Below, piece by piece: positions 3,562 through 50,987 of a stretch of 64,000 bases of DNA. Numbering within the stretch: the first letter of the stretch is position 1; every line of letters begins with the position of its first letter. Source of the DNA: a virus; the IMG/VR virus record IMGVR_UViG_3300001097_000002, positions 32,887-96,886 of that record. The stretch is one strand, 5' to 3'. A program made the translations under genes and the position numbers. The notes below the pieces were generated by a model. It saw only the letters and a program-made list of their open reading frames with translations. It did no database searches and had not been told where the DNA came from.

Positions 3562-4038
3562 ATGCAAACAGAACACATAACCGCGGAAAATTATCAATAT
3601 AAGTTACCATTTGACAATAAAGAAGGCAAAGACGTTTTTCGGTACATACCGCATGCACCAGAGATTGAGGATGTTGACGAGGATTTTAAAGAAAAGAACT
3701 GCTATAAGAACGATACTTTTATTAGGGGTGCGTATGTCAGTTACCCATACACTAAAGAACATCTTGATGAAATGAAACGTTGCAAAGACGATTCTTTTTA
3801 CTTTATCCAAAATTACGTAAGAATTAACACGCTTGATTATGGTGTACGGTTATTTGACCCTTTCCAGTATCAGAAAAATATGATTAAGATGATGGACGAA
3901 AATCGTTTTACAATATTTACAACTTCACGCCAAGCGGGTAAATGCGTGCACGGTACTACTGAAATAACAGTGCGTAATAAAACCACTGGCTTGATAGAAA
4001 CAGTTGAGATAGAAGATTTCTTTTCGCGTTTTGAGTAA
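3562..4038 (+). CDS. gp17: Terminase large subunit fragment 1 (N-terminus to Walker A Lys) fused to split-intein N-half
   Basis: T4 gp17-like EMKRCKDDSFYFIQNYVRI, FDPFQYQKNMI, Walker A TSRQAGK, then intein block A CVHGTTEITV...VEIEDFF and stop. Confidence 0.92.
   Translation: MQTEHITAENYQYKLPFDNKEGKDVFRYIPHAPEIEDVDEDFKEKNCYKNDTFIRGAYVSYPYTKEHLDEMKRCKDDSFYFIQNYVRINTLDYGVRLFDPFQYQKNMIKMMDENRFTIFTTSRQAGKCVHGTTEITVRNKTTGLIETVEIEDFFSRFE
3943..4035 (+). mobile_element. Split intein N-fragment (31 aa, Cys1), site a (Walker A GK|[T/S])
   Basis: CVHGTTEITVRNKTTGLIETVEIEDFFSRFE matches intein N1 block C-x-x-G-x-T-x-I...I-E-D-[LF]. Confidence 0.88.
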
Positions 4039-7684: not shown

Positions 7685-8794
7685 TCACTCGTCATTACCT
7701 AAAAAATCATCGCCACCATCCCAATCATCGCCACCACCTAACATAGTTTCATTAGTATCAACTTCGTCGTGAATTAGTTTACCACTGCTAATTTGATACA
7801 TAGTTTCCACGTCTGAATGGAATTTCTCTTCTGCAAACAAAGGACCCCAGAATTTAGAACTATTGGTATCTTTGGCGCGCCACTTCTGGTCTTCTTGTAC
7901 ACCTTCAATAACTCGACTATACCAACCATTTGATGGTTTTTTAATATAACCTACATTCATGCCCACTTCTAGCATACCAGTATACTTATTCATACCACCG
8001 TCAAAACGCATTTCGATTGGAAACTTAGATTTCTCTTTACAGTAACGACTTTTCTCAACGTTCATAATCAAGTTAAATCCAGTAATTTCTTTACCTTCTT
8101 TTTCTTGTTGTCGTCCCATAATGAACACTTGGTCACTTGAATACATGATACCTGAACCACCAGAAACAACAGCTTTTGAAAACAGTTCCATTGTTTGATA
8201 TACATGCGCTACCCCAACCATAACAATTTTCATGATACGCAAGTAAGGTGTGACAATACGTGTTAATGATTTTAGTTCTTTAGCACGTGTCATATCAGCT
8301 TTGGCTTTACCTTCTAGTGCATCCTCTGCTTCTTTCTTACTTGCTAAGTTACCTAAGCTGTCAATATAGATAAACACTTTCGCACCTGGATATTCTTTCT
8401 TAATCATATCAAGTTGTTTAACAAGGTCAAACTTCAAGTTTTCAATGTTAAGAAGTGGCATATGCAAGATACGTGAAGTATCAATATCCAAACTGTCAAA
8501 ATATGATTTAGGTGTACCGAACTCACTGTCATAAAATAACATGATAGCATCAGGATACTTGGTCATATACGCTTTCGCGCACACGTTAGACAGTACACTC
8601 TTACCATGTTTACTAGGACCCGCAAACAATGTCAAACCAGGTTTTAGTCCACGTCTTAAACTACCAGAGAACGCTAAATTCATTAGCGGAATATCAAGTA
8701 GAACATCCTCTTCGTCAAAAAATACACTGTTATCCAAACCATCAGTGCCTTCAATAATACTGTTTTTCTTTAACGCTTTTAGCATACTACTCAT
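7685..8794 (-). CDS. uvsX: RecA-like recombinase UvsX
   Basis: AGPSKHGKS Walker A, FYDSEFG, IDSLGNLASKKE, DMTRAK, VSGGSG, KSRY. Confidence 0.96.
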   Translation of the reverse strand: MSSMLKALKKNSIIEGTDGLDNSVFFDEEDVLLDIPLMNLAFSGSLRRGLKPGLTLFAGPSKHGKSVLSNVCAKAYMTKYPDAIMLFYDSEFGTPKSYFDSLDIDTSRILHMPLLNIENLKFDLVKQLDMIKKEYPGAKVFIYIDSLGNLASKKEAEDALEGKAKADMTRAKELKSLTRIVTPYLRIMKIVMVGVAHVYQTMELFSKAVVSGGSGIMYSSDQVFIMGRQQEKEGKEITGFNLIMNVEKSRYCKEKSKFPIEMRFDGGMNKYTGMLEVGMNVGYIKKPSNGWYSRVIEGVQEDQKWRAKDTNSSKFWGPLFAEEKFHSDVETMYQISSGKLIHDEVDTNETMLGGGDDWDGGDDFLGNDE

Positions 8795-8803
8795 ATAATT
8801 CCC

Positions 8804-10295
8804 TTAAAAGAATGTTTTTCTGTTATGTGATTTCTTCTTGCCTACGCTTGTATCCTCAGTGGTTACATTAGCGCTTGCAACTAGACCATTATCAATATTT
8901 TCTCCATCACCAAACTTAAATATTGAACCTGAATGACGAATGTTATAATTTAATAGTTTAGTAAATGATTCAAGCGGACGCATAAACGTCACTTCAAACA
9001 TATTTTTTCTGTCTATGTAATTGTCAAGATTAAACTCCTTTGGTAATTCATCAGGATAACCAATTACAGTTGAGTTAAGTGGATTTCCGTCTACTAGGTC
9101 AAGGTACTTAATTTTACTGCCGCTTTTGATTATGGGGTGGTTCTTAGTATGGATATCACTACTTCTAACAAAGTTGTTATATGTTATAGCAGCGCGTACA
9201 TGTTTAGGACAACGCTTGATAGGTTGATTGTTTTCGTCACTCCATTTCTCAATCCCGTTAACACCTTTTGGATATGCAATTTTATTAGGATGTAGGTTTT
9301 TATAATCATTTCTAAATCCCTTAACATACTTGCGCAAACCGTCCTCGTCGCGTGTAACCATATATTTAATACATTCTGTTAGGCTGTTACGTATGACCGC
9401 AGGTGTAGAAGTCCTATTGGTTTCAATACCAAGCATTTTAAGTTTAGGCTCTGTATAACGTACGTGCTCCATATCATATACGTTTAATATATAGTTCTTT
9501 TTAGCTCGGAAAATAGCACAATCACAAATTGCCTCGCGTTTCATTATCAATCTGTTTTCCATACCGTTTAAGTATTCTGATAACTCACCGTAAGATTTTT
9601 CTATAAATGGTTCAATATTATCATGTACGTATTCGTCAATTATTGTTATTACTTCATTAGTATCAGTATTGACTGGTAAACTGTCAACCAATGGTGCAAC
9701 TGTAAAATATAGACTATCAGTGTCACCATAAATTGTATAGTCTATATTATTAGTTTTAAATTGTTCATTTAAAAAACCATTAAGCTTTTTCTCCATATAT
9801 TTAATTGCCAATTGACCTGTAGACGTAACAGCTTCTGCTATCTCACGTTTGAAATAACGAAAGCCTTCATTTCCAATCGCACCATAACCCAAGATATTAA
9901 TTCTGAACCGATAACTAACCTCAGAATAAAAGTATTTTACTACTTTTGCAACATGTCACCATGTTGATTAGACTATATCATGACCCATTCTCCAGGGCCC
10001 TCACCGTTTCCAATACTCTTGTATTGTACTCTACTAACTGCGATTAAGCGCTTTCGATAGTCGTTGCACGCATCCCGTAGGACTTTGTACATGATTGTCT
10101 TATTGTGGCTCAATAAGAGTTCCCATGTTTAGATGAGTTATTCACTTACACATTACCATGTAAGGCAGCAGTCTTGTTTTACTTGCTTTTACTGTTTGCA
10201 AGAATCTTGTAGGCGTATTGTAGTGCGTCTTCTCTGCTAACATCGTTCTCTAATTCAGCTATGCGTTTATTAATAGACGCAATATCTTTATACAT
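8804..10295 (-). CDS. gp43: DNA polymerase gp43 piece 3 (gp43B: fingers C-helix, palm motifs B/C, thumb); exon 1 10295-10191, exon 2 9889-8804
   Basis: Exon 1 MYKDIASINKRIAELENDVSREDALQYAYKILANS + exon 2 GYGAIGNEGFRYF restores motif B KILANSGYG; YGDTDS, MKRE, KKNY motifs. Confidence 0.93.
9890..10190 (-). mobile_element. Group I self-splicing intron, 301 nt, no ORF
   Basis: 5' exon ends in U (AAC AGU|), intron ends in G (..AUCUUG|GGU); R element GUGCAACGACUAUC and S element AUGAUAUAGUCUAA give P7 GACUA/UAGUC; removal restores reading frame. Confidence 0.93.
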
Positions 10296-10390
10296 ACTTT
10301 AAATATTCCTTATCTTTTGATACGATTGGATTATCGTAATTAAATATGTAACGTTTATCAGTATATTGTTGATACATAATAAACTTAATA

Positions 10391-11113
10391 TCACTTAATT
10401 CCATCTTTAATCATATCCTCTCTGAGAGCATATAACTTTTGTAACTCTCTTTCGCTGTCTTTCATACCACTCTTAATAACACTACGAGTATCAAACAAGT
10501 TTTCCATAGTGGCTGCAATAACACCAATTTTGTCTTTTGAATACAATGTACCATTAGCAGCAAGGCAATAATCTTTTTCGTGTGCTATTTTGGTACTATA
10601 TTTCATATCTATCATACTGTTTAATATATCGTCTACGTGCTCCTTTGATTTCATCACAAGAGTTTCAGCGCTCATGTTTAGCATCATTATGATAGATGGA
10701 TACAAGCTTTTTAAATCGCCACTAACAACCCAGTCAGTGCGTCCTAATACAGGTTCTTTAACGTGACCACCCATATAACTTTCACCGCCCTCAGCGTATA
10801 CTTTAGGAGGTATGACAATGCTATCTCTATCAAGTCTAGCGTAAATCATATTGTCCCATGGTTGCACGGTTGCAAAAATATCACTTGGGTTACTACGGCT
10901 TACGTGTGCAAATGATAACGCCACCTGAATAAAGTTTAGCTTGTTATCAAGTTTAGATATTAATACAGTATCAGTCTCGTTATAGTCAATAAATGTGTTG
11001 AAGCTGTCCTGTTTAACTTTTTGGTTAACATCATCATATAATTTCTTAAGCTGTTCAAAACTCAACTTGTCAAGATGGTTCTCGACAAGCATTTCATACT
11101 TTTTTAAATTCAT
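10391..11113 (-). CDS. gp43: DNA polymerase gp43 piece 2 (ExoIII, palm motif A, first fingers helix)
   Basis: FIDYNETD (ExoIII), YMGGHVKEP, SGDLKSLYPSII (motif A), ANGTLY. Confidence 0.93.
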   Translation of the reverse strand: MNLKKYEMLVENHLDKLSFEQLKKLYDDVNQKVKQDSFNTFIDYNETDTVLISKLDNKLNFIQVALSFAHVSRSNPSDIFATVQPWDNMIYARLDRDSIVIPPKVYAEGGESYMGGHVKEPVLGRTDWVVSGDLKSLYPSIIMMLNMSAETLVMKSKEHVDDILNSMIDMKYSTKIAHEKDYCLAANGTLYSKDKIGVIAATMENLFDTRSVIKSGMKDSERELQKLYALREDMIKDGIK

Positions 11114-11203
11114 ATATCACCAATGTTAGATGTTAAAAAAGGGCACCTAATTATTATAGGCGCCCATTAGTATAACATAAAATTTTATAATAGCAAGATA
11201 TAA

Positions 11204-11476
11204 TTAGATTTGCAATTTCAATTTATTAGCAGCACAATACGCACGCATAGCTTCATCAAGCAAAAGTTTATTATAACCAATCTCTATTGAATACATGTCA
11301 TTTACTAGCACCAGCGGCACTAAATTACCTTTCATATCAACATTAACCTTTGCGATAGGTTTTATATTAGTATCAAAAGTTGTCTTAGTTATATATTTCA
11401 TATCATGGTTTTTATCAAAATGATATAGAATGATAAAATCATCTGCGTTTGGTTTGTAGCTCATATAATACTCCAA
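11204..11476 (-). CDS. Hypothetical protein
   Basis: ORF with GGAG SD before MSYK. Confidence 0.55.
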   Translation of the reverse strand: MEYYMSYKPNADDFIILYHFDKNHDMKYITKTTFDTNIKPIAKVNVDMKGNLVPLVLVNDMYSIEIGYNKLLLDEAMRAYCAANKLKLQI

Positions 11477-11491
11477 ATAATAAATTAGTTT

Positions 11492-12106
11492 TTATAGATA
11501 GTCTACGATAGTATTACCTGGCGTTCCGAACATAATTTTCGTATGTTGACCACCACCAAGTTCACGACTGTAAAAATACTCTGCTAGCTCTGGATACTTC
11601 TTAGGATAAGCCGGGTCGACATGTTCAGTGTTCAGTTTCTTACCTAGAATATCGCGTGCGTCATCAACTGTCTGTGCATACTTAATCGCTTCTGACATAC
11701 CAATTGAGCGCACAACAAATTTGAGCATACCGGCACTAGTTTCACCCATTGAACGGTCAAATTCATTAGATACCAAATCAGCCAACGCAATCGCGCCTTG
11801 CTTTGTTTGGTTTGTGAAACTAGCTACTGACTTACGACCATTTTTGTCTTTGTACAACTTACCGGCAATGATTTCACCGTTTTTTCGAATCAGTTTCCAA
11901 AACGTAATATTAAGCATATCTTCAGGACTATCAAAACCAGACCCTTTAATACCACCAATCTTAGCATATGAGCGTTGAACTAAGTCCCATACTACTAACT
12001 TGTGTTTTTCTTTCTTCTCGTTATCACCAATGATATTAATGTAACGTTCGTTAAGGTCGTTACCACTATCGCGTTCATGTAAGTAATCTTCAAATGCAAC
12101 TGTCAT
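11492..12106 (-). CDS. Putative internal head protein (capsid-targeting-like N-terminus)
   Basis: MTVAFEDYLHE...DLNE. Confidence 0.65.
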   Translation of the reverse strand: MTVAFEDYLHERDSGNDLNERYINIIGDNEKKEKHKLVVWDLVQRSYAKIGGIKGSGFDSPEDMLNITFWKLIRKNGEIIAGKLYKDKNGRKSVASFTNQTKQGAIALADLVSNEFDRSMGETSAGMLKFVVRSIGMSEAIKYAQTVDDARDILGKKLNTEHVDPAYPKKYPELAEYFYSRELGGGQHTKIMFGTPGNTIVDYL

Positions 12107-12128
12107 TATTTATTCCTTTCTTAGTTTA

Positions 12129-12653
12129 TCAAGATAATACTGGATATTTATACTTTCCGACGTCCTGAATCCCATCAATTATATCAGGGGTCCGGCAAAT
12201 ACGATGGTGTCCATTGTCAAAGTATTTAACGTCATAGTTATCAGGGAAGTTATCAAATACGGCTTTAACTCCATTGTAATCAATGACTTCATCATCTTTC
12301 TCAACCAATACAGCAACATCTGCCTTACTTGGAATGAATTTAGTATTGTCATCGCAAATCTCAGGACGGTTCAATGTTGGGTTAATACAAGGACTAATCA
12401 ATACCGCATTATGTCCATATTTTACACTCATTGCGTTTGCAATGTAAGCGCCCATACTGTGACCAACAACAATAACGTCTTCATAATCACTCAAATCTTC
12501 AACCGCTTTACTAGCAATTGCGAGGGCGTTCTCCAAGCCATCATCATAGTCGATTGCAACAGCAACCTTATTAGTGAAAATGATATTAGTGAATTTGTCA
12601 GTATTAACACTACTGCCATATCCGTGAAAAAACAAAATGATAGAATCTTTCAT
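12129..12653 (-). CDS. Alpha/beta hydrolase (YqiA/UPF0227-like esterase)
   Basis: FFHGYGSS, nucleophile elbow GHSMG, DEVID, GHH. Confidence 0.85.
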   Translation of the reverse strand: MKDSIILFFHGYGSSVNTDKFTNIIFTNKVAVAIDYDDGLENALAIASKAVEDLSDYEDVIVVGHSMGAYIANAMSVKYGHNAVLISPCINPTLNRPEICDDNTKFIPSKADVAVLVEKDDEVIDYNGVKAVFDNFPDNYDVKYFDNGHHRICRTPDIIDGIQDVGKYKYPVLS

Positions 12654-12715
12654 TAACTTATCTCCTTAAAGATTTATTATAACATAATATATACTATGGC
12701 ACAACCGTAGAACCC

Positions 12716-13183
12716 TTACAATTGCGCGTATGTGAAATCATCAAGTTCATCAATAACACATTGTAAACCATTATCTTTGAAACGGTTGTAAAAGTAATTA
12801 ACTTCCTTTGAACTCAAATTATACCCTATGGATAAATCATGAAGAAACTTAGAAGTTAGTTTTGATTTCTTGGAATTATACTCGCACACGGCCGCTTTAA
12901 AGTCATCTTCAGCAACGACAACTTCGCGCACTGAATAATCAATAACAGTTTCGCGGACAATGGCTTTTTTAACGCCTAACATATCATAGTAAACATATGC
13001 ACCTTCAACCGTTTCGCGCATGCCTACAACTCGACCTAACTTGTAATAGTAGATGGTTGTGAACATTGACTGTGTTGGTACTGGTGTATCGTTCATTGTA
13101 TATTTATCTAAGTTATTCATAATAATTCTCCTATCATTTAAACTGTTTCTCAAAACTACCACTAAATTATATAACAGCCACAA
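12716..13183 (-). CDS. Hypothetical protein (likely start MNNLDK near 13120)
   Basis: AGGAG SD upstream of the internal Met. Confidence 0.6.
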   Translation of the reverse strand: MWLLYNLVVVLRNSLNDRRIIMNNLDKYTMNDTPVPTQSMFTTIYYYKLGRVVGMRETVEGAYVYYDMLGVKKAIVRETVIDYSVREVVVAEDDFKAAVCEYNSKKSKLTSKFLHDLSIGYNLSSKEVNYFYNRFKDNGLQCVIDELDDFTYAQL

Positions 13184-13229
13184 AAAAGTGTAAAGCTATA
13201 TTACATAACTTTACACTCAATGATTTAAA

Positions 13230-13661
13230 TTAAATTGTTTCGACTGATTGATAATCAATAACAGTAATAGGTACAGGTTTAACTTCAAAGTATTCAGTAC
13301 CGTCAGTATCAAATCCGTAATAACTTTCGTAATACCCGTGACATAACAGATATCTACCACTAGGCATATGTTTTACTACTTGTTCCCAATGGTCACCGTC
13401 GCCTTCTCCGCCTTGACGCCTAACAATTTCGTATAACGTTTTTTCATCAAACGCACGTAACTTGTCTTCTAGCGCATCAGTACGTTCTCGCATTTCTACT
13501 CTATCGTCACCGTTAGTTTCAACAAAATCACTAAATTGATACATAAATTCGTCTGCAAAAAATACTCTAAGCTCATTCATAACATCTTTAAAAGTTTCAA
13601 ATGATAATTCTTTACCATGTACCATTTCTTCAAGTGTGCTGATAACGTCTTCGAATTCCAT
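13230..13661 (-). CDS. Hypothetical protein, paralog array member
   Basis: QGGEGDGD, GYYESYYG, C-terminal FEVKPVPITVIDY. Confidence 0.7.
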   Translation of the reverse strand: MEFEDVISTLEEMVHGKELSFETFKDVMNELRVFFADEFMYQFSDFVETNGDDRVEMRERTDALEDKLRAFDEKTLYEIVRRQGGEGDGDHWEQVVKHMPSGRYLLCHGYYESYYGFDTDGTEYFEVKPVPITVIDYQSVETI

Positions 13662-13716
13662 AGTGTTTTCCTTTTTGATAAAATTATATGTTACTAGTTT
13701 TTAACTACATTGTCAA

Positions 13717-14064
13717 TTATAATATATAGCAATCTGCACTATCAAGATGATACTTATTAACCATTACTTTTTCCTGTATTACTTTATCCCATTTATCATG
13801 TACCCACATTTCACTATACAGTTCTTCAAAGCGCGATTGTTGATAATACTCGCCACTGACTTTATCAACATATATGTTAAAGTCAAAATAACTGCCGTGT
13901 TCAAATGACTCTACATATTCCATGCGCTCGTCAAACGCATTGACATCATCCATGAGCAAATAGCAAACAGTTACATCATATGCAAACTTTGTGCGTAATA
14001 CCAGTAAGACTTCTTGTGGTAGCATATATTCACGGTTAATAAAACGATTATATAATTCTCTCAT
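13717..14064 (-). CDS. Hypothetical protein, paralog array member
   Basis: C-terminal WDKVIQEKVMVNKY. Confidence 0.6.
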   Translation of the reverse strand: MRELYNRFINREYMLPQEVLLVLRTKFAYDVTVCYLLMDDVNAFDERMEYVESFEHGSYFDFNIYVDKVSGEYYQQSRFEELYSEMWVHDKWDKVIQEKVMVNKYHLDSADCYIL

Positions 14065-14073
14065 AACATAAGC

Positions 14074-14226
14074 CTAAATGTTGGTGTATTGGGTAACAGT
14101 AACTTCAGCGGTTTCGTATTGATATAATTGCACCAAATCAATGCAACAACCATCCATCAACACAAATAACATATCATCACGTGCTAGTTCTTTGTTGTTT
14201 AAGAAATCGTTAATTAAGTTTTTCAT
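14074..14226 (-). CDS. Short 50-aa paralog remnant (not in ORF track)
   Basis: MKNLINDFLNNKELARDDMLFVL...ETAEVTVTQYTNI; ATGA-coupled; N-terminus resembles 13717-14064. Confidence 0.55.
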   Translation of the reverse strand: MKNLINDFLNNKELARDDMLFVLMDGCCIDLVQLYQYETAEVTVTQYTNI

Positions 14227-14569
14227 AATGTTCGACACTCGTATTGTACATTTACAAGCTCTACTTTATCCCAATACTCCCAGTTTTCTGCTGTGCCATT
14301 AAGTCTATATAAGAAACCAAATGATTTAATGATAATATAGTTATAAGGCCCTTCCATTGATACGTCAATAATTTCAATGGTGTCAAGTGAAATAACATGA
14401 TGCATATATTTACATGCGTCTGTCATCAATTTCTTATCTCTTACATCAAACAGAACATTATTGTTTAAAAATTCAGCACCACTAAACTATGTTCAACAGA
14501 CATTCTGGCGCACACGATGTGACGTTGTTCTTTTGATAATCCTGCTAATTCATAACTACTCATAATCAT
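14223..14569 (-). pseudogene. Frameshifted paralog-array gene
   Basis: GGAG SD + ATG at 14569 (MIMSSYELAG...) stops early; adjacent frame (FSGAEFLNNNVLFDVRDKKLMTDAC...WDKVELVNVQY) continues; shift near 14485. Confidence 0.55.
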
Positions 14570-14603
14570 TCTCCAATAATAAAATTTATATTAAACAGTA
14601 TTG

Positions 14604-14975
14604 CTAGTACGGAGTATATACTGTTATTGTTTTTTCATGCGGCATAACTCTAGTCCAATTACCTATTTCGTATGATAGTGTATCGTATATCCTGTTAGGA
14701 TACGTAAACATATAATATACATCAGTATGTATACATTGCACAACTAAACAATCCTCTTCATCATCATCGCTACCTATAGACTCATATTCAAACATATTCC
14801 AAAATGCTTCATATAGTAACGAATGGTTAACAATAATATCATCAACGATTACCGTCTCAATTGTATCAGCATCATTTAAATCAATTTTTACAAGCGTGTT
14901 TAACAAATCAAGCAAGTCAATATTTTGCATTCTTTCATTTGCTAAAAACAAACCTAGTCTATCTAAAATATTCAT
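14604..14975 (-). CDS. Hypothetical protein, paralog array member
   Basis: C-terminal WTRVMPHEKTITVYTPY. Confidence 0.65.
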   Translation of the reverse strand: MNILDRLGLFLANERMQNIDLLDLLNTLVKIDLNDADTIETVIVDDIIVNHSLLYEAFWNMFEYESIGSDDDEEDCLVVQCIHTDVYYMFTYPNRIYDTLSYEIGNWTRVMPHEKTITVYTPY

Positions 14976-15883
14976 AATGAAAACTCCAATGATAAAATTT
15001 TACGATAATAGAACGGGTCAAATGCATCAATAATATCTGAGTAATTATCAATAGCAAACGCTCTAAAGAAACCACTTGCTAAGTCAGTACATACACGCAT
15101 CAATGCCCACATAAAAGAGCTTCTAGCGTAATATTCTTTACTGTCATTTACTAGTTTTGGAATGATGCATCGTTCACTAGCAATCACGTAACACTCTTCT
15201 AATACAGTTTGCACTTTTTCTAATTGTGTGAACTTATTCCATAAATGCTTGTAACATAACACTTCTCCGTTCTTCTGCATTTTATTATACATGGGTTTAT
15301 CATTATGTGCAAACACTTCATGCAAATAATCATGTTCGATATATTTCTTAACACCATCATCAAAAAAATGTTCTTTAGTAACATTTAGTTTAGGCAACTT
15401 TTGCGCACCAAGTCGCAAGTCTGTATCAATTCTTTGCGTTCTGATTAACTCGCTCACTGTGTATGCGCTTGTTCCATATTGTTCATCATCAGTTAAACCA
15501 CGTACTCGGTTTAACTGTACGAGGTCACTCATATGCTTATCCCATTTACGCATACGTTGGTGGATATGACCACGTTTGATAATGTATAGCATAGTTGTAT
15601 CAGCAAGGCTAATAGGCGCCCTGTAATAGGCGTTATATAGCTCTGCTAGTGTATTATCATATGCTACCAATAGTTCAATACGCTGCTCACCATCATTAAA
15701 TGGGATAATGCTGTCTTTAGATATCTTATCCCTAAAACGATACGGAATGTCTTTTGGCATAACCACAACATCCAAATCAGCTTTTGTTCTATCATCAAGA
15801 ACAGTAATCGCTTGGCTACCAACAACAATACCGTTATAAATACCGTTACTATGTAACAGCGCTTTTATATCATGAATATTCAT
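14972..15883 (-). CDS. Putative Pol-beta-type nucleotidyltransferase-domain protein
   Basis: VVGSQA...ADLDVV (GS-x-DxD); conserved-looking EHDYLHE, EECYVIASER. Confidence 0.6.
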   Translation of the reverse strand: MNIHDIKALLHSNGIYNGIVVGSQAITVLDDRTKADLDVVVMPKDIPYRFRDKISKDSIIPFNDGEQRIELLVAYDNTLAELYNAYYRAPISLADTTMLYIIKRGHIHQRMRKWDKHMSDLVQLNRVRGLTDDEQYGTSAYTVSELIRTQRIDTDLRLGAQKLPKLNVTKEHFFDDGVKKYIEHDYLHEVFAHNDKPMYNKMQKNGEVLCYKHLWNKFTQLEKVQTVLEECYVIASERCIIPKLVNDSKEYYARSSFMWALMRVCTDLASGFFRAFAIDNYSDIIDAFDPFYYRKILSLEFSL

Positions 15884-16151
15884 AAATCACCCTTGTTACT
15901 GGTTTAACTTCATACCATTCTTGTTCGTTGAATATGATGTGTGTACCATTGCGTGTATGTTGATAATAGCCGTTTTGTCGATAATGTTTACCATCATATG
16001 TGATAATCATATACGCTTGACTATCAGTCAATATTTCTATAGCCGTACATTCAGCGCGTTCAACCATGGTATCATTAATCATGACACCATATTCAACGCT
16101 TGCGTGAACTAGATGTTTATTGAGTTTATCCAAAAATTCGTCCTGTAACAT
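15870..16151 (-). CDS. Hypothetical protein, paralog array member
   Basis: DGKHYRQNGYY...WYEVKPVTRVIYEY. Confidence 0.65.
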   Translation of the reverse strand: MLQDEFLDKLNKHLVHASVEYGVMINDTMVERAECTAIEILTDSQAYMIITYDGKHYRQNGYYQHTRNGTHIIFNEQEWYEVKPVTRVIYEYS

Positions 16152-16229
16152 AATCCCTCCAATAAAAAAGTGACATACGAAATCATCTTATGCCACAATT
16201 ATAACAAATTATTGATGCGCTGTAAAGGT

Positions 16230-16634
16230 CTAAAACAAATCAACTATATTCTCAGAAAGTATTCTTGCGAAATCACCATCTAACGGTTTTGAGTTATACA
16301 CCATATTGTGCTTGATTTCAGCAATTGACAATCCTGACGGTTTAGATAGTTCTACTGCTAATGCGTTAACATTTCGCAGCGCAACATCATTAATTATATT
16401 ATCCTCGTTTTCTGCGCAATACTCCCATAATGTCATCAGTAATTCAGTAGTCATCATTTCAGCATATGCTAAGTTTTTAAACTGATAAGACATAACAATT
16501 GCTCTGGCGGTTGGCCTATACATTGTAACCGATACACCACTAAAATTTGATAATTGCATCGCCACTTCTATTTGATATTGTAGGCTAACAATCAAGTCGC
16601 CATCATCAAACTTAACAATTTCTTTAAATGTCAT
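16230..16634 (-). CDS. Hypothetical protein
   Basis: Overlaps end of gp43 piece 1; GGAGGAG SD. Confidence 0.65.
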   Translation of the reverse strand: MTFKEIVKFDDGDLIVSLQYQIEVAMQLSNFSGVSVTMYRPTARAIVMSYQFKNLAYAEMMTTELLMTLWEYCAENEDNIINDVALRNVNALAVELSKPSGLSIAEIKHNMVYNSKPLDGDFARILSENIVDLF

Positions 16635-17823
16635 TGTTCTCCTCCAACATCATATCAAGTCTTGTGGCAACCATAGTTCTAATCCTTGCCCATCGGTCTT
16701 TTTCTGGTAGTTCTTCAATGTTTGTTTCTTCTGGTAGTTCTTCAATGTTTGTTTCTTCTGGTATATCATACACACCACAATACAAGTTCATTAGACTGTC
16801 TTTGTATTCGCTATAATTTACTTTTTTCTCGCCAAGCTCAACATCAGAAATATGGTCAAGTGTATATCGTTCTTGCTTAGCCTTTGCGTACTGTTTATAT
16901 AATGCCATATAGTCTAAATGAGTAAGACCAAAGATATTATATTCTAATGATGGTGCTCGCTTGTTTTCTTTAATAACGTTCTTACCGTATGCACTAAATG
17001 GACTTAGTTTATTAGTAACAGCGTTACCTACAATCTTTCTAGCGCGAGTTACAAGATATGGTATATCAAATAACACACCAAACCAACTAGTGATAAAGTC
17101 AAACTGTTCGTCTACAAAAACGTTGATAAATGCCGTAATCAGTTCTTTCTCATTTCTACATTGTAGATACTCAATATCCGATTTTCCAGTATACCCTTTT
17201 AATCCAAGTCCGCCTGTTTTAACAATGTTATGTCCAACGATAACTTGATAGGTGATACTAAGAATTTCAGCAATTGCATCCTCGGGTTTCGGAAAGCCGA
17301 TGTTCTGGTCAGCATACGTAGAGTCTTTATACCAAACCATTTTTTTATAGAACGGGTCCATCACTTTAATATCAGCAAGATTATCGAAGTTTTTAATTTG
17401 TTTGTAAAATGCTTCTTTAGTTGGACCCTTACCTTCTTTATATACAACGGTGTCGAAATTCGTATATGTAAAACCATCACCATGATTAACTTCAATATCA
17501 AAGGATATCGTTTTATACAAAGGTTCGTCCACGCTTACTTCTTCATACTCCTTTGATATAAATTGCTGTATAGGTGAAGTGTTTCCGAATATATTTTCCA
17601 TTTGGTTGTTGTGTACGAAATCATTAAGCTTATATATAGTATCAAATTCGATACGTTTTAACTTGTCACCATACAAACTAATATAGTCTCCACTTATACT
17701 TTTTGTGAATAGTTCATATGGATAGTTTTTTACAATCTCAATATGACGTTCACCATCTTGTATATAACGATGAAACAGCGTGTCGCCCATTGTTCCCACG
17801 AACGTATAATACCGCTTACTCAT
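16624..17823 (-). CDS. gp43: DNA polymerase gp43 piece 1 (N-terminal domain + ExoI/ExoII)
   Basis: YYTFVGTMGDTLFHRYI, SFDIEV (ExoI), GFPKPEDA, TSWFGVLFDIPYL (ExoII), HLDYMALYK, YTLDHIS..ELGEKK. Confidence 0.92.
   Translation of the reverse strand: MSKRYYTFVGTMGDTLFHRYIQDGERHIEIVKNYPYELFTKSISGDYISLYGDKLKRIEFDTIYKLNDFVHNNQMENIFGNTSPIQQFISKEYEEVSVDEPLYKTISFDIEVNHGDGFTYTNFDTVVYKEGKGPTKEAFYKQIKNFDNLADIKVMDPFYKKMVWYKDSTYADQNIGFPKPEDAIAEILSITYQVIVGHNIVKTGGLGLKGYTGKSDIEYLQCRNEKELITAFINVFVDEQFDFITSWFGVLFDIPYLVTRARKIVGNAVTNKLSPFSAYGKNVIKENKRAPSLEYNIFGLTHLDYMALYKQYAKAKQERYTLDHISDVELGEKKVNYSEYKDSLMNLYCGVYDIPEETNIEELPEETNIEELPEKDRWARIRTMVATRLDMMLEENNDI
16702..16763. repeat. 27-bp tandem duplication (2.3 copies) encoding PEETNIEEL x2
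   Basis: ttctggtagttcttcaatgtttgtttc repeated exactly. Confidence 0.95.
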
Positions 17824-17861: not shown

Positions 17862-18362
17862 TTAGTCGAACAGATTCTCATTCCATTCACGATGCCCTTC
17901 CCTAAATGCCATATTCGATTGTGTTTCTCGAACAGAAACTCTATAGCACCACACATTTTTAGCAACTTCTTTACCAAACGCTTCTTCGATAAAAATACCG
18001 TTAATGTACTTGTACACGAAGTCAGCGATTGATTCACAACCAGTATGCTCAACTTCAGTAATTTTAGCAATACCTAGTTCACCTAATGCTTTAATTTGGT
18101 TGTACATTGGGTCATCACTACTTAGCAATAAAGTATGGTCAAACCATTCCTCCAACTTTTCTTTAAGTGGTTTCAAACCACCGTATTCTACTTGTCCCCA
18201 ATTACGTGTATCTAATTCATTTGAACCAAAATATAATTTAAAACTAAAACTATATCCATGTATTTTATTACAGTGTGAATCGGCCCTCCATTGTCTGTAT
18301 GCACACGGAAAAGCATCGACATATTCTTTCGTGACTGTGTATTTGTAATTTATGTTATTCAC
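17862..18362 (-). CDS. queD: 6-carboxy-tetrahydropterin synthase / PTPS family
   Basis: CNKIHGY, LKEKLEEWFDHTLL, GCESIA, VSVRET. Confidence 0.85.
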   Translation of the reverse strand: MNNINYKYTVTKEYVDAFPCAYRQWRADSHCNKIHGYSFSFKLYFGSNELDTRNWGQVEYGGLKPLKEKLEEWFDHTLLLSSDDPMYNQIKALGELGIAKITEVEHTGCESIADFVYKYINGIFIEEAFGKEVAKNVWCYRVSVRETQSNMAFREGHREWNENLFD

Positions 18363-49008: not shown

Positions 49009-49365
49009 ATGGACATAAAATCATATGATTCTTTTGCATCAAACTCTAATTTCAACATTCTAACAGATGATGGATACAAACATTTTAGTGGTGTTACAAA
49101 GTCACTATTAGTTGACCCGCCTATTGAATTAACGCTCAATAACGGTGAAATAATTGTGTGCACCATCAACCACAAATTATACGTAACTAAAGACAAATGG
49201 GTATATGCTAAGTTTTTAAATGTTGGTGATACACTATACAGCCCTTTTAATAAGGTGCGCATAACAGCTATTGGTGACAGTAAAGAACGTTACGTGTACG
49301 ATATAATAGATGTAACAGATACTAGCAGTTACCTAGTAACACCGTACATGATTAAAAGTAGCAAT
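49009..49365 (+). mobile_element. Split intein C-fragment, site b (just before Walker B)
   Basis: NILTDDGYKHF.G, block B CTINH, LNVGD, block F VYDI, ends KSSN|C. Confidence 0.88.
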
Positions 49366-49731
49366 TGCTTATACTTAGACGAATTTGCGTTTGTTGAAAA
49401 TGACGTAGAATTCTATACTGGTACATATCCTACAGTAACATCTGGTAAAAACACAAAGGTCATCATTACTTCCACGCCACGTGGTTTGAACATGTTCTAT
49501 AAAATCTTTAATGATTCTCAACAAGGTAATAACAAATACAAGTCATATAAAATCGGTTGGGAGGAGCATCCTGAGCGCGATGAAGAATGGTACTTAGAAA
49601 CCAAATCTAACATCGGTGAGTCAAAATTTTCCGTGGAATATGAGAGTTTGGCACACGAAACTATAGTAAGTATAAATGATAATAACACACTAACAAGTAT
49701 GTGCATTGGAGATTTATATGACTATATGTAA
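49009..49731 (+). CDS. gp17: Terminase large subunit fragment 3: IntC(119 aa) - extein (Walker B to linker, 93 aa) - IntN(28 aa)
   Basis: CTINHKL, YVYDI...SSN|CLYLDEFAFV...ITSTPRG.N.FY...W.EHP.RD..W...FSVEYE|SLAHETIV...IGDLY. Confidence 0.93.
   Translation: MDIKSYDSFASNSNFNILTDDGYKHFSGVTKSLLVDPPIELTLNNGEIIVCTINHKLYVTKDKWVYAKFLNVGDTLYSPFNKVRITAIGDSKERYVYDIIDVTDTSSYLVTPYMIKSSNCLYLDEFAFVENDVEFYTGTYPTVTSGKNTKVIITSTPRGLNMFYKIFNDSQQGNNKYKSYKIGWEEHPERDEEWYLETKSNIGESKFSVEYESLAHETIVSINDNNTLTSMCIGDLYDYM
49645..49728 (+). mobile_element. Split intein N-fragment (28 aa, Ser1), site c (EYE|CKF)
   Basis: SLAHETIVSINDNNTLTSMCIGDLYDYM. Confidence 0.85.
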
Positions 49732-49814
49732 TAGTGATTTGATTGAGACAGTAGAAATCTTAGCGGCATTTGGATTACCACTCTAATCAAGTGTCTCGAA
49801 TTTTTGGAGTTGGT

Positions 49815-50165
49815 ATGAGCAAAGTACATCTAGGGTTTAAAAAGAACACTAAAAATTTAAAAGTGTTAACACCAAATGGACACGAAGAATTCTACGGAAT
49901 AAACAAAATACGTGTCGATGAATATATACGAATAAAATTCAAAGAACATAAAGAAATACGTTGCTCGATTGACCACCCGTTTATACAAGAAAATGATTTA
50001 CCAATAAAAGCAAAACATATTGATAAAAGCAAACATATAAAATGTATTGATGGATTTACTACTTTAGAGTATTCGCATGTTGTTAATAAACAAATTGAAC
50101 TATATGATATTGTAAACTCTGGTAGTGAGTACATATATTTTTCTAATGGGATATTAAGTCACAAC
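49815..50165 (+). mobile_element. Split intein C-fragment (117 aa), site c
   Basis: NTKNLKVLTPNGHEEFYGI, CSIDHPF, LYDIVN, SNGILSHN|C. Confidence 0.92.
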
Positions 50166-50987
50166 TGTAAATTCATGGGTTCTGCAGGTACACTTATTAA
50201 TGGACGTACACTAGAACTATTATCATATAGTGAACCATTGCGTGAAACCGACCACAGACACAAAACAATCCGCGTGTATGCAGAACCTGTGGAATCACAC
50301 AAGTATGTAACCATTGTTGATACTAGTGAAGGTGTACAGCTTGATTTTAGTGTTATCACTGTTATTGACGTTTCTAAAATGCCTTACAAACAAGTATTCA
50401 TGTACAAGGATAATACCACCCCACCAATCACGTTTACTAGTATTGGTGCAGAAGTAGCGGAACGTTATAATAGCAGTGTAATGCTTGTAGAAAATAATAA
50501 CAGTAGTGGTGGTATTGTTGCAAACGGGTTGTGGTACGATATCGAGTATGAGAATATGCTAACCACAAAAGTAGCAGTAAATACACGTGATACCGAAATT
50601 GGTTTTGATAACAAAAGTATACCGGGTGTTAGAACCACCAAAAAAACAAAAGCCGTTGGTTGTACATACCTCAAAAACTTAATAGAAAGCAATCAGCTTG
50701 AAATTGTTGATTATGACACTGTGGCGGAATTAACAACGTTTGTTCGCGTAGGAAAAAGTTATGAAGCTGAAAAGAACAAACATGATGATATTGTTATGAC
50801 GCTTGTTATGTTTGCATGGTTTACATCACAGGATTATTTTGAGGATGAAACTGGCATTAGTTCATTAAGTGATATGAATGATACGTTGATGGAAGATAAC
50901 GACATGGACTTTGTGCTTGGCTTTATCAGCAACGGCACGGAGAAAAATGAAGAAGTTGATTTATTTGATAAGGGCTTGTTTAATTAG
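49815..50987 (+). CDS. gp17: Terminase large subunit fragment 4: IntC + nuclease domain
   Basis: CKFMGSAGTLI, VDTSEGVQLDFS, VENN, GVRTTKKTK..GC..LK.LIE, HDDIVM. Confidence 0.95.
   Translation: MSKVHLGFKKNTKNLKVLTPNGHEEFYGINKIRVDEYIRIKFKEHKEIRCSIDHPFIQENDLPIKAKHIDKSKHIKCIDGFTTLEYSHVVNKQIELYDIVNSGSEYIYFSNGILSHNCKFMGSAGTLINGRTLELLSYSEPLRETDHRHKTIRVYAEPVESHKYVTIVDTSEGVQLDFSVITVIDVSKMPYKQVFMYKDNTTPPITFTSIGAEVAERYNSSVMLVENNNSSGGIVANGLWYDIEYENMLTTKVAVNTRDTEIGFDNKSIPGVRTTKKTKAVGCTYLKNLIESNQLEIVDYDTVAELTTFVRVGKSYEAEKNKHDDIVMTLVMFAWFTSQDYFEDETGISSLSDMNDTLMEDNDMDFVLGFISNGTEKNEEVDLFDKGLFN

What the first reader, a model, noticed from the sequence alone, without database searches (positions are those of the whole stretch)
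8804..17823. Three-polypeptide family-B DNA polymerase with the proofreading site split across genes 5.5 kb apart
Seen: piece 1 (16624-17823) has ExoI/ExoII and ends after ELGEKK..Y...L.NLY. Piece 2 (10391-11113) supplies ExoIII (FIDYNETD) and motif A. Piece 3 (10295-8804) has motifs B/C. Established: a gp43A/gp43B split at the fingers tip occurs in some Aeromonas/Acinetobacter T4-like phages, and the piece 2/3 break matches that position. The piece 1/2 break inside the exonuclease domain is, to my knowledge, not described. Neither junction has intein motifs. Both new ends carry extra amphipathic helices (DRWARIRTMVATRLDMMLEE; LSFEQLKKLYDDVNQKVK). Inference: these act as docking coiled-coils for a non-covalent heterotrimer. 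About 11 accessory ORFs sit between pieces 1 and 2.
Basis: partly seen in the sequence, partly recalled or inferred. Interest (0 to 1): 0.85.

Follow-up and report, generated by a model that had tools for sequence, protein, structure and literature searches.

The report
Three-gene phage DNA polymerase with intron
An uncultured T4-like phage from a salt lake encodes its replicative DNA polymerase as three separately translated proteins, cut once inside the proofreading domain (the two genes lie 5.5 kb apart) and once at the fingertip, with a self-splicing intron in the third gene. The proofreading-domain cut is not in the papers I could search but proves common in metagenomic phages.

Summary
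'Piece 3' is not one ORF. It is two exons (10295-10191 and 9889-8804) around a 301-nt group I intron (Rfam RF00028, 61.5 bits) that interrupts motif B at ANS|GYG.

Piece 1 (399 aa) carries ExoI and ExoII. Piece 2 (240 aa) carries ExoIII and motif A. Piece 3 (396 aa once spliced) carries motifs B and C.

The cut before ExoIII is real. Ten relatives at 39-82% identity end at the same place with a conserved tail (LPEKDRW[CA]RLRT). Seventeen of 81 related protein clusters start at the piece-2 start. Two IMG/VR contigs have the two genes side by side.

Unsplit relatives (P0026, P0023, P0028, P0034) hold both 'extra helices' in one chain, as an ~80-aa insert before ExoIII. AlphaFold2 models these helices confidently in P0026 (pLDDT 84-93). 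The same tail is unplaced (<50) when piece 1 is folded alone.

Most likely this is a non-covalent heterotrimer whose 1/2 interface is a cut helical insert. There is no intein, and no other PolB in the 96.9-kb contig, which is only about 43% of the genome.

The closest relatives (67-76% identity) have two pieces and no intron, so the fingertip cut and the intron are later additions.

Class: new variant of a known kind. The scan has noted gp43 cuts inside the exonuclease domain on other DNA before.

The parts
16624..17823 (-). Cistron 1 (399 aa): first half of the N-terminal domain, exonuclease motifs ExoI (D109, E111) and ExoII (D253), a variable linker, and a conserved C-terminal tail helix (about residues 372-398, LPEKDRWARIRTMVATRL...).
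   Evidence: Pfam PF03104, E 1.6e-17. Aligns to RB69 gp43 2-306. Ten homologues of the same size share the same end. AlphaFold2 on piece 1 alone folds the core but leaves residues 306-399 below pLDDT 50.
16699..16752 (.). 27-nt tandem duplication (two copies, 96% identical) in the linker before the tail helix. It encodes PEETNIEEL twice and is absent from all relatives.
   Evidence: family D8; alignment A1. The Logan contigs break here.
11114..16623 (-). 5,510-nt intervening block with 12 same-strand ORFs of 54-303 aa. The first ORF's ATG (16634) overlaps the end of cistron 1 behind a GGAGGAG Shine-Dalgarno sequence. Recognisable products are a DUF7275 protein (14972-15883) and an alpha/beta hydrolase (12129-12653). 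No homing endonuclease was found.
11141..11165 (-). Terminator-like GC-rich hairpin followed by a T run, 28 nt upstream of the cistron 2 ATG. A promoter-like site lies just before it (11215-11187).
   Evidence: These are consensus matches only.
10391..11113 (-). Cistron 2 (240 aa): N-terminal helices (MNLKKYEMLVENHLDKLSFEQLKKLY...), the ExoIII helix (Y44, N45, D48), the second half of the N-terminal domain, the first part of the palm with motif A (DLKSLYPS), and the first finger helix.
   Evidence: Pfam PF00136. Aligns to RB69 301-494. The N-terminus is conserved in P0017-P0019, P0022 and P0175-P0179.
10296..10390 (-). 95-nt untranslated spacer between cistrons 2 and 3, with AAGGA 11 nt before ATG 10295. 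The two cistrons are in different frames.
10191..10295 (-). Cistron 3, exon 1 (35 codons): second finger helix up to K-I-L-A-N-S of motif B.
   Evidence: The intron-less relatives P0175-P0179 read ...ALQYAYKILANSGYGAIGNEGFR without a break.
9890..10190 (-). ORF-less group I intron (301 nt). U precedes the 5' splice site and G ends the intron. An in-frame stop lies three codons into the intron.
   Evidence: Rfam RF00028, 61.5 bits against a gathering score of 50, E 2.1e-15, core at 9949-10172. It shares GTGCAACGACTATCGAAA and ATATAGTCTAA with the phage 25 gene 43B intron.
8804..9889 (-). Cistron 3, exon 2 (361 codons): G-Y-G of motif B, the second part of the palm with motif C (YGDTDS), the thumb, and a C-terminal tail ending ...KTFF.
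   Evidence: Aligns to RB69 556-900, E about 1e-61.
7685..8794 (-). UvsX-type recombinase directly downstream. This is the same pol-then-UvsX order as in Xanthomonas phage X1 and Stenotrophomonas phage IME-SM1, so the pieces sit at the ancestral gene 43 locus.

Best explanation
The phage makes its replicative family B (T4 gp43-type) DNA polymerase from three separately translated chains that assemble without covalent joining.

Shown:
- Three cistrons exist. Between them they carry every catalytic motif exactly once.
- The third cistron's mRNA contains a group I intron. Removing it recreates K-x3-N-S-x-Y-G exactly as in intron-less relatives.
- The cut before ExoIII lies in the loop of an ~80-aa helical insert that unsplit relatives carry in one chain.

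Inferred, chain 1 with chain 2: three things hold them together.
1. The cut insert re-forms as an intermolecular helix bundle, with the chain-1 tail helix packing against the chain-2 N-terminal helices.
2. The ExoIII helix of chain 2 completes the exonuclease fold of chain 1.
3. The N-terminal domain is built from both chains (RB69 residues 1-108 and 340-382).

Inferred, chain 2 with chain 3: they join as gp43A and gp43B do in Aeromonas phages 44RR and 25, through the two antiparallel finger helices and the shared palm sheet (motif A from chain 2, motif C from chain 3).

Both active sites are therefore composite.

History: the exonuclease-domain cut is old in this clade. The fingertip cut, the intron and probably the 5.5-kb gene block came later.
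For: - Motifs and their mapping onto RB69.
- Conservation of the cut: ten piece-1 homologues (327-388 aa, 39-82% identity) end at the same place with an almost invariant L372, K375, D376, W378, L381, R382, T383 and invariant ExoI/ExoII residues. Piece-2 homologues keep the M-[ND]-L-x-K-Y start and invariant Y44/N45/D48.
- Frequency: 17 of 81 aligned 50%-identity cluster representatives begin within about 15 aa of the piece-2 start. Several sit on contigs of 20-92 kb.
- Adjacent two-gene versions: L102 has a 54-nt spacer and L104 has TAAATG between the genes.
- Insert in unsplit relatives: P0026, P0023, P0028, P0034 and P0121 have 125-133 aa where canonical enzymes have 47-51 aa. That stretch contains both helices.
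- AlphaFold2 of P0026: pLDDT 92.3, pTM 0.88, RB69 fold at TM 0.77-0.79. The tail-equivalent helix 304-319 scores 84-93, followed by loop 320-334 and helices 335-351 and 354-394. Piece 1 alone leaves residues 306-399 below 50.
- Intron.
- The closest relatives are two-piece and intron-less. P0175-P0179 are 621-624 aa. P0178 and P0179 share contig lengths with the piece-1 homologues P0005 and P0004.
- Synteny with UvsX.
- No second PF00136 or PF03104 match in the 96.9-kb contig.
- Independent assembler contigs are collinear with the stretch.
- Published precedents: split gp43A/B co-purify and are active (PMC2988022); split Pfu is active (PMC3061061); tails on split NrdA are essential (PMC3045599); PhiKZ PolB is cut within an insertion (bioRxiv 10.64898/2026.09.30.755723).
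Against: - No direct evidence of association, activity or expression.
- The AlphaFold2 contrast is confounded by alignment depth (12 against 92 rows).
- The contig is estimated at only 43% of the genome, so a second polymerase cannot be excluded.
- A terminator-like hairpin between the insert and cistron 2 raises the question of how the three chains are kept in balance.
Confidence: 0.78

Rival explanations
1. A complete, unsplit polymerase gene lies in the unsequenced part of the genome. The three pieces are then redundant or decaying copies.
For: The contig is only about 43% complete by CheckV.
Against: The pieces sit at the ancestral locus next to uvsX. All catalytic residues and both new termini are conserved over relatives down to 39% identity. 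Relatives on long contigs show the same split. No second PF00136 or PF03104 match lies in the 96.9 kb.
Confidence: 0.06
2. Pieces 1 and 2 are joined covalently after transcription or translation, by trans- or cis-RNA splicing, protein trans-splicing or ribosomal bypassing, to give one chain.
For: The genome does carry a group I intron. Rfam's filters missed that intron in large scans, so absence of a hit is weak evidence.
Against: No Hint/intein match, and the Cys after NLY varies (C, G, S, Q, L, R). Piece 2 has no room for an intein C-part. Both ends are conserved as protein and are retained in the mature chain of unsplit relatives. Twelve translated ORFs lie between the pieces, the first translationally coupled to piece 1.
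Confidence: 0.03
3. Piece 1 no longer works with the polymerase. It would be a stand-alone protein or pseudo-exonuclease, and the enzyme made of chains 2 and 3 would replicate without proofreading, as the RM378 polymerase gene lacks an exonuclease part.
For: RM378 encodes its exonuclease and polymerase 57 kb apart. The two genes here are far apart and separated by a terminator-like hairpin.
Against: Here ExoIII sits on the polymerase-side chain, and it stays invariant together with ExoI/II on the other chain. That only makes sense if the site is rebuilt from both. The N-terminal domain is also shared between the chains. The last ~90 aa of piece 1 are not confidently folded on their own.
Confidence: 0.07
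4. Assembly artefact: the pieces come from different genomes, or the 5.5-kb block was wrongly joined in.
For: There is only one holder run, probably the source sample. The Logan contigs break at 11802-11824 and at the tandem repeat.
Against: Both gene ends lie well inside contigs that run on into neighbouring genes with no mismatches. The same proteins occur on several contigs up to 97.8 kb. Relatives share the same termini. The ORF that spans the 11.8-kb break is intact.
Confidence: 0.03

Closest known systems
Split gp43A/gp43B polymerases of T4-related Aeromonas and Acinetobacter phages (44RR, 25, 31, 65, 133), including the group IA2 intron in phage 25 gene 43B (Petrov et al. 2006 and 2010, as summarised in PMC3061061 and PMC2988022)
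   Same: The piece 2/3 break is at the fingertip, as in 44RR and phage 25. A short untranslated spacer separates the cistrons. An ORF-less group I intron sits in motif B of the downstream cistron, and it shares the P7-region sequences with the phage 25 intron.
   Different: The intron site is four codons upstream (after NS, not after YGAL). No homing endonuclease lies between the cistrons. There is an additional cut in the exonuclease domain, giving three chains.
Rhodothermus phage RM378: exonuclease and polymerase encoded by separate genes
   Same: The proofreading part and the polymerase part are separate genes far apart in the genome (57 kb).
   Different: The RM378 cut lies after ExoIII and after the N-terminal domain: its 349-aa exonuclease protein contains EYNAVDA, and its polymerase starts just before motif A. 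Its exonuclease site is therefore on one chain. Here the cut is 4-7 residues before ExoIII and splits the site.
PhiKZ (chimallivirus) DNAP-N + DNAP-C (bioRxiv 10.64898/2026.09.30.755723)
   Same: A family B polymerase cut within a lineage-specific insertion. The two chains form a stable complex.
   Different: That cut is in a palm insertion, the enzyme has two chains, and the phage lineage is unrelated.
Aeh1 NrdA-a / mobE / NrdA-b 'genes in pieces' with essential tails (PMC3045599; PMC2988022)
   Same: An essential enzyme is cut through an active-site region, and new C- and N-terminal tails at the cut are needed for function.
   Different: No endonuclease gene remains at the cut here. The tails also occur as a contiguous insert in unsplit relatives, so whether they came from a mobile cassette is unresolved.
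Methanothermobacter split PolB and engineered split Pfu (PMC3061061)
   Same: These show that family B polymerases tolerate non-covalent reconstitution.
   Different: Their cuts are in the palm and the fingers, not in the exonuclease domain.

Membership tests
Family B DNA polymerase, T4 gp43 type | ExoI (DxE) and ExoII (FDxxY) motifs | tested here: met
   FDIEV and FDIPY in piece 1. D109, E111 and D253 are invariant in 12 sequences.
Family B DNA polymerase, T4 gp43 type | ExoIII (Yx3D) | tested here: met
   YNETD in piece 2 aligns with RB69 Y323/D327. Y44, N45 and D48 are invariant. It lies on a different chain from ExoI/II.
Family B DNA polymerase, T4 gp43 type | Motif A (DxxSLYPS), motif B (Kx3NSxYG), motif C (YGDTDS) | tested here: met
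   Motif A is in piece 2. Motif B is complete only after the intron is removed. Motif C is in exon 2.
Family B DNA polymerase, T4 gp43 type | RB69-like five-domain fold | tested here: inconclusive
   Shown for the unsplit relative P0026 (TM 0.77-0.79 to RB69 gp43). The window's own complex could not be modelled.
Fingertip-split gp43A/gp43B | Break between the two long finger helices, with each cistron having its own start | tested here: met
   Alignment with 44RR and phage 25 gp43A/B. There is a 95-nt spacer with AAGGA before the ATG.
Fingertip-split gp43A/gp43B | The chains co-purify and are active | not testable with these tools
   Needs a biochemical test.
Group I intron | Catalytic core (P3-P9) scoring above Rfam's curated threshold | tested here: met
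   RF00028, 61.5 bits against 50, full model 1-253.
Group I intron | U before the 5' splice site, G at the 3' end, and ligated exons that restore the conserved protein | tested here: met
   AGU|...UUG|GGU. Intron-less relatives read ILANSGYGAIGN.
Group I intron | Self-splicing | not testable with these tools
   No RNA run is listed.
Split intein (protein trans-splicing) at the 1/2 junction | Hint-domain halves and a conserved Cys/Ser/Thr nucleophile at the junction | tested here: not met
   No Hint or intein Pfam match. The residue after NLY varies. Piece 2 has only about 20 aa before its homology to the polymerase starts.
Homing-endonuclease cassette with self-supplied tails (Aeh1 NrdA type) | An endonuclease gene between the halves | tested here: not met
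   No HNH, GIY-YIG or LAGLIDADG match in the 10 larger insert ORFs. The adjacent versions L102 and L104 have 54 nt and 0 nt between the genes.
Homing-endonuclease cassette with self-supplied tails (Aeh1 NrdA type) | Extra tails at both new ends that are absent from canonical enzymes | tested here: met
   The same tails also occur joined together in unsplit relatives.

The most novel reading that the evidence does not exclude
The site just before ExoIII is a recurrent cutting site of T4-type polymerases. A portable helical 'clasp' module (tail helix plus N-terminal helices), perhaps first delivered by a mobile endonuclease cassette that has since been lost, lets the proofreading site be split between two genes again and again. 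Once the enzyme is split, the proofreading chain can be moved and expressed separately, as here, 5.5 kb and a terminator away. That could let the phage tune proofreading relative to synthesis.
Probability: 0.2. Interest if true: 0.75.

Novelty: new variant of a known kind. Interest (0 to 1): 0.6.

Why it matters
Split family B polymerases are known at the fingertip, in the palm and between the exonuclease and polymerase halves. A natural cut that puts ExoI/II and ExoIII on different chains is not in the papers I could search, and neither is a three-chain enzyme in which both active sites are composite.

The metagenomic data show that this cut is common and stable. That makes it a natural test bed for how a proofreading site can be rebuilt from parts. 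It also suggests a clasp-like helix pair that might be usable for engineered split polymerases.

On the practical side, standard gene callers split this polymerase into a 362-aa fragment lacking motif B and two further 'partial' polymerases, so such phages will be mis-annotated.

Tried and rejected
- Rfam on 12 kb (E up to 1) and on the whole window (gathering threshold) found nothing. Only a 381-nt scan found the intron.
- Megablast of the 9-kb stretch against phage records: no match.
- Searches for close relatives' DNA all came back empty. I scanned IMG/VR with the piece-1 alignment (hits of at most 40% identity), JGI metagenomes with exact peptides, and both collections with a degenerate tail pattern.
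What lies between the two genes in the 67-82% relatives is therefore unknown.
- Sequencing runs: one DNA holder, a hypersaline lake metagenome that is probably the source. No RNA holder is listed.
- I tested whether the piece-1 tail and the piece-2 N-terminus are duplicates of each other. hhalign gave P = 0.09, not significant, so I dropped the idea.
- Intein, ribosomal bypass and TGA recoding at the junctions were considered and rejected on sequence. In L102 the spacer has three in-frame TGA codons, but the 900 flanking codons have none. L104 has TAAATG.
- The tree of the piece-2 region is a quick search on 189 columns with many unsupported forks. Only the statement that starred branches force at least 4 changes of the split state should be used from it.
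- Whether the insert came before the split, or a cassette cut the gene and the halves later re-fused, could not be decided.

Full report
**Where the window comes from.** The window is part of a 96.9-kb IMG/VR virus contig that CheckV estimates at 43% complete. The only sequencing run that holds it is a hypersaline lake metagenome. Its G+C content is 32-40%. The nearest cultured phages are T4-like: Xanthomonas phages X1 and BUDD, and the Stenotrophomonas IME-SM1 group. They share 34-38% identity with piece 1 and have an ordinary polymerase of about 892 aa followed by a UvsX-type recombinase.

**Anatomy.** All parts lie on the minus strand.
- Cistron 1 (17823-16624, 399 aa) matches the family B exonuclease domain (PF03104). 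It aligns with RB69 gp43 residues 2-306 and includes ExoI and ExoII.
- Its stop overlaps the ATG of the next ORF, behind a GGAGGAG Shine-Dalgarno sequence.
- Twelve same-strand ORFs then fill 5,510 nt. Only a DUF7275 protein and an alpha/beta hydrolase are recognisable, and there is no homing endonuclease.
- A terminator-like hairpin (11165-11141) precedes cistron 2.
- Cistron 2 (11113-10391, 240 aa) aligns with RB69 301-494. It carries ExoIII (YNETD, matching Y323/D327) and motif A.
- After a 95-nt spacer, a third cistron starts at ATG 10295. Its frame stops after ...KILANS-KSK, and the rest of motif B (GYGAIGN...) resumes 301 nt later in another frame.

**The intron.** The 301 nt between the two parts of cistron 3 score 61.5 bits against Rfam's group I intron model (gathering score 50, E 2e-15, full model length). 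A U precedes the 5' splice site and a G ends the intron. Intron-less relatives read ...ALQYAYKILANSGYGAIGNEGFR without a break, which fixes the junction at ANS|GYG. Exon 2 (9889-8804) aligns with RB69 556-900 and carries motif C.

The same reader noted the intron in a separate finding, and I reached it independently and tested it.

The phage 25 gene 43B intron lies four codons further downstream. It shares only the P7-region sequences with this one.

**Is the cut before ExoIII real?** Four lines of evidence say yes.
- Logan contigs, made by another assembler from what is probably the source run, are identical to the stretch and collinear with it. Both gene ends lie well inside contigs. The breaks fall only in an insert ORF and at a 27-nt tandem duplication in the piece-1 linker.
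- Ten proteins of 327-388 aa from other assemblies (39-82% identity) end where piece 1 ends. They have invariant ExoI/II residues and an almost invariant tail, L-P-E-K-D-R-W-[CA]-R-L-R-T.
- Piece-2-like proteins begin with the same M-[ND]-L-x-K-Y-E and keep Y44, N45 and D48.
- A profile-free search of 1.8 billion cluster representatives shows that, among the sequences nearest to piece 2, 17 of 81 aligned rows start within about 15 residues of this point. Most are 570-640 aa, meaning pieces 2 and 3 fused. Some are 234-249 aa, meaning they are also cut at the fingertip. Several lie on contigs of 20-92 kb.

Two IMG/VR contigs show the simple form with the exonuclease gene directly upstream. L102 has a 54-nt spacer and L104 has TAAATG between the genes.

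The closest relatives of this phage (67-76% identity; P0175-P0179, 621-624 aa) have the exonuclease-domain cut but neither the fingertip cut nor the intron.

**What the 'extra helices' are.** Between ELGExK and LDxKL, canonical T4-type polymerases have 47-51 residues. Five unsplit relatives (P0026, P0023, P0028, P0034, P0121) have 125-133. Their extra ~80 residues contain, in one chain, first the tail motif (for example ERRWCNLRTRVMRHL), then a loop of about 15 residues, and then the piece-2 N-terminal sequence (LPRFETLVFDKLDQL...HNKVHQDSYNLFVRYNIVD).

So the cut lies in the loop of a helical insert placed just before the ExoIII helix. AlphaFold2 models unsplit P0026 with pLDDT 92.3 and pTM 0.88, in the RB69 fold (TM 0.77-0.79). 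In that model the tail-equivalent helix 304-319 scores 84-93 and is followed by helices 335-351 and 354-394. Piece 1 folded alone has a good core, but residues 306-399 fall below 50.

This fits the view that the last ~90 residues of chain 1 need chain 2 to fold. Two caveats apply: the two alignments differ in depth, and I could not read contacts from the models.

A direct test for duplication between the two ends was not significant.

**Distribution.** In a quick tree of the piece-2 region, this phage groups with split forms (P0017, P0018, P0022, P0024) and with insert-bearing unsplit forms (P0023, P0026), with aLRT support of 94. Split forms also sit next to canonical ones in well-supported pairs, so at least four changes of state are forced.

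The cut is therefore either recurrent or laterally spread. Earlier notes of this scan report gp43 cuts in the exonuclease domain of other phages with an HNH gene at the cut and matching peptide ends. Those notes are leads I did not check. Published work shows that tails created by a mobE insertion are essential for split NrdA of phage Aeh1 (PMC3045599).

Here no endonuclease remains. I cannot tell whether the insert came before the cut, or whether a cassette cut the gene and some lineages later re-fused the halves.

**Comparison with known splits.**
- The fingertip splits of phages 44RR, 25, 31, 65 and 133 match the piece 2/3 break (PMC3061061, PMC2988022).
- The RM378 cut lies after ExoIII and after the N-terminal domain.
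- PhiKZ is cut in a palm insertion (bioRxiv 10.64898/2026.09.30.755723).
- Methanothermobacter PolB is cut in the palm (PMC3061061).
- No paper I could search describes a cut between ExoII and ExoIII, or a three-chain family B enzyme.

**Verdict.** This is a real, selected, three-cistron polymerase with a group I intron. It most likely works as a non-covalent heterotrimer in which both active sites are composite (confidence 0.78). It is a new variant of a known kind. The exonuclease-domain cut is the new element, and it is widespread rather than unique to this phage.

Noticed in passing
window 9890-10190, and the window as a whole: Rfam scans of 12 kb and of the whole 64 kb missed a group I intron that scores 11 bits above the gathering threshold in a 381-nt scan. 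Other introns in this window could be hidden in the same way.
   Followed up: partly
proteins P0182, P0184, P0185, P0188 (also P0180, P0183): At least four other protein clusters begin exactly at MGYGAIGN. This is what a gene caller produces when the ANS|GYG intron site is occupied, so the same site is probably interrupted in other phages. I had no DNA to check.
   Followed up: no
proteins P0022, P0023, P0034, P0050, P0079, P0082, P0097, P0029: Many related polymerases end about 100 aa after motif C (DTDS) in intein-N-like sequence (...DHSL...V.VKP.EV...), as expected for split inteins at motif C. P0029 (1,475 aa) carries a large intein-like insert inside ExoII. This polymerase family is fragmented in at least five different ways.
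   Followed up: partly
window 13230-13661, 15870-16151, 12258-12281: Small ORFs in the intervening block are paralogues. They share a C-terminal [WY]-[FY]-E-V-K-P-V motif, which also shows up as DNA repeat family D1/D5.
   Followed up: partly
window 17862-18362 (-): A QueD-type 6-pyruvoyl-tetrahydropterin synthase (PF01242) lies directly upstream of cistron 1. It hints at 7-deazaguanine modification of the phage DNA.
   Followed up: no
window 8804-8950 (-), C-terminus of chain 3: The polymerase C-terminus has two clamp-binding-like motifs (GSIFKFG, and the terminal KTFF) about 35 aa apart. Relatives P0026 and P0028 show the same doubling.
   Followed up: no
window 11802-11824: The Logan contigs break inside the 204-aa ORF 11492-12106, with a small change in depth (15.8 to 13.5). 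This may reflect strain variation within the intervening block.
   Followed up: no
window 3562-4038 and 49009-50987: Earlier first-reader notes describe a terminase in several pieces joined by atypically split inteins in this same genome. If that is true, the phage fragments several essential genes by different means. Not checked here.
   Followed up: no
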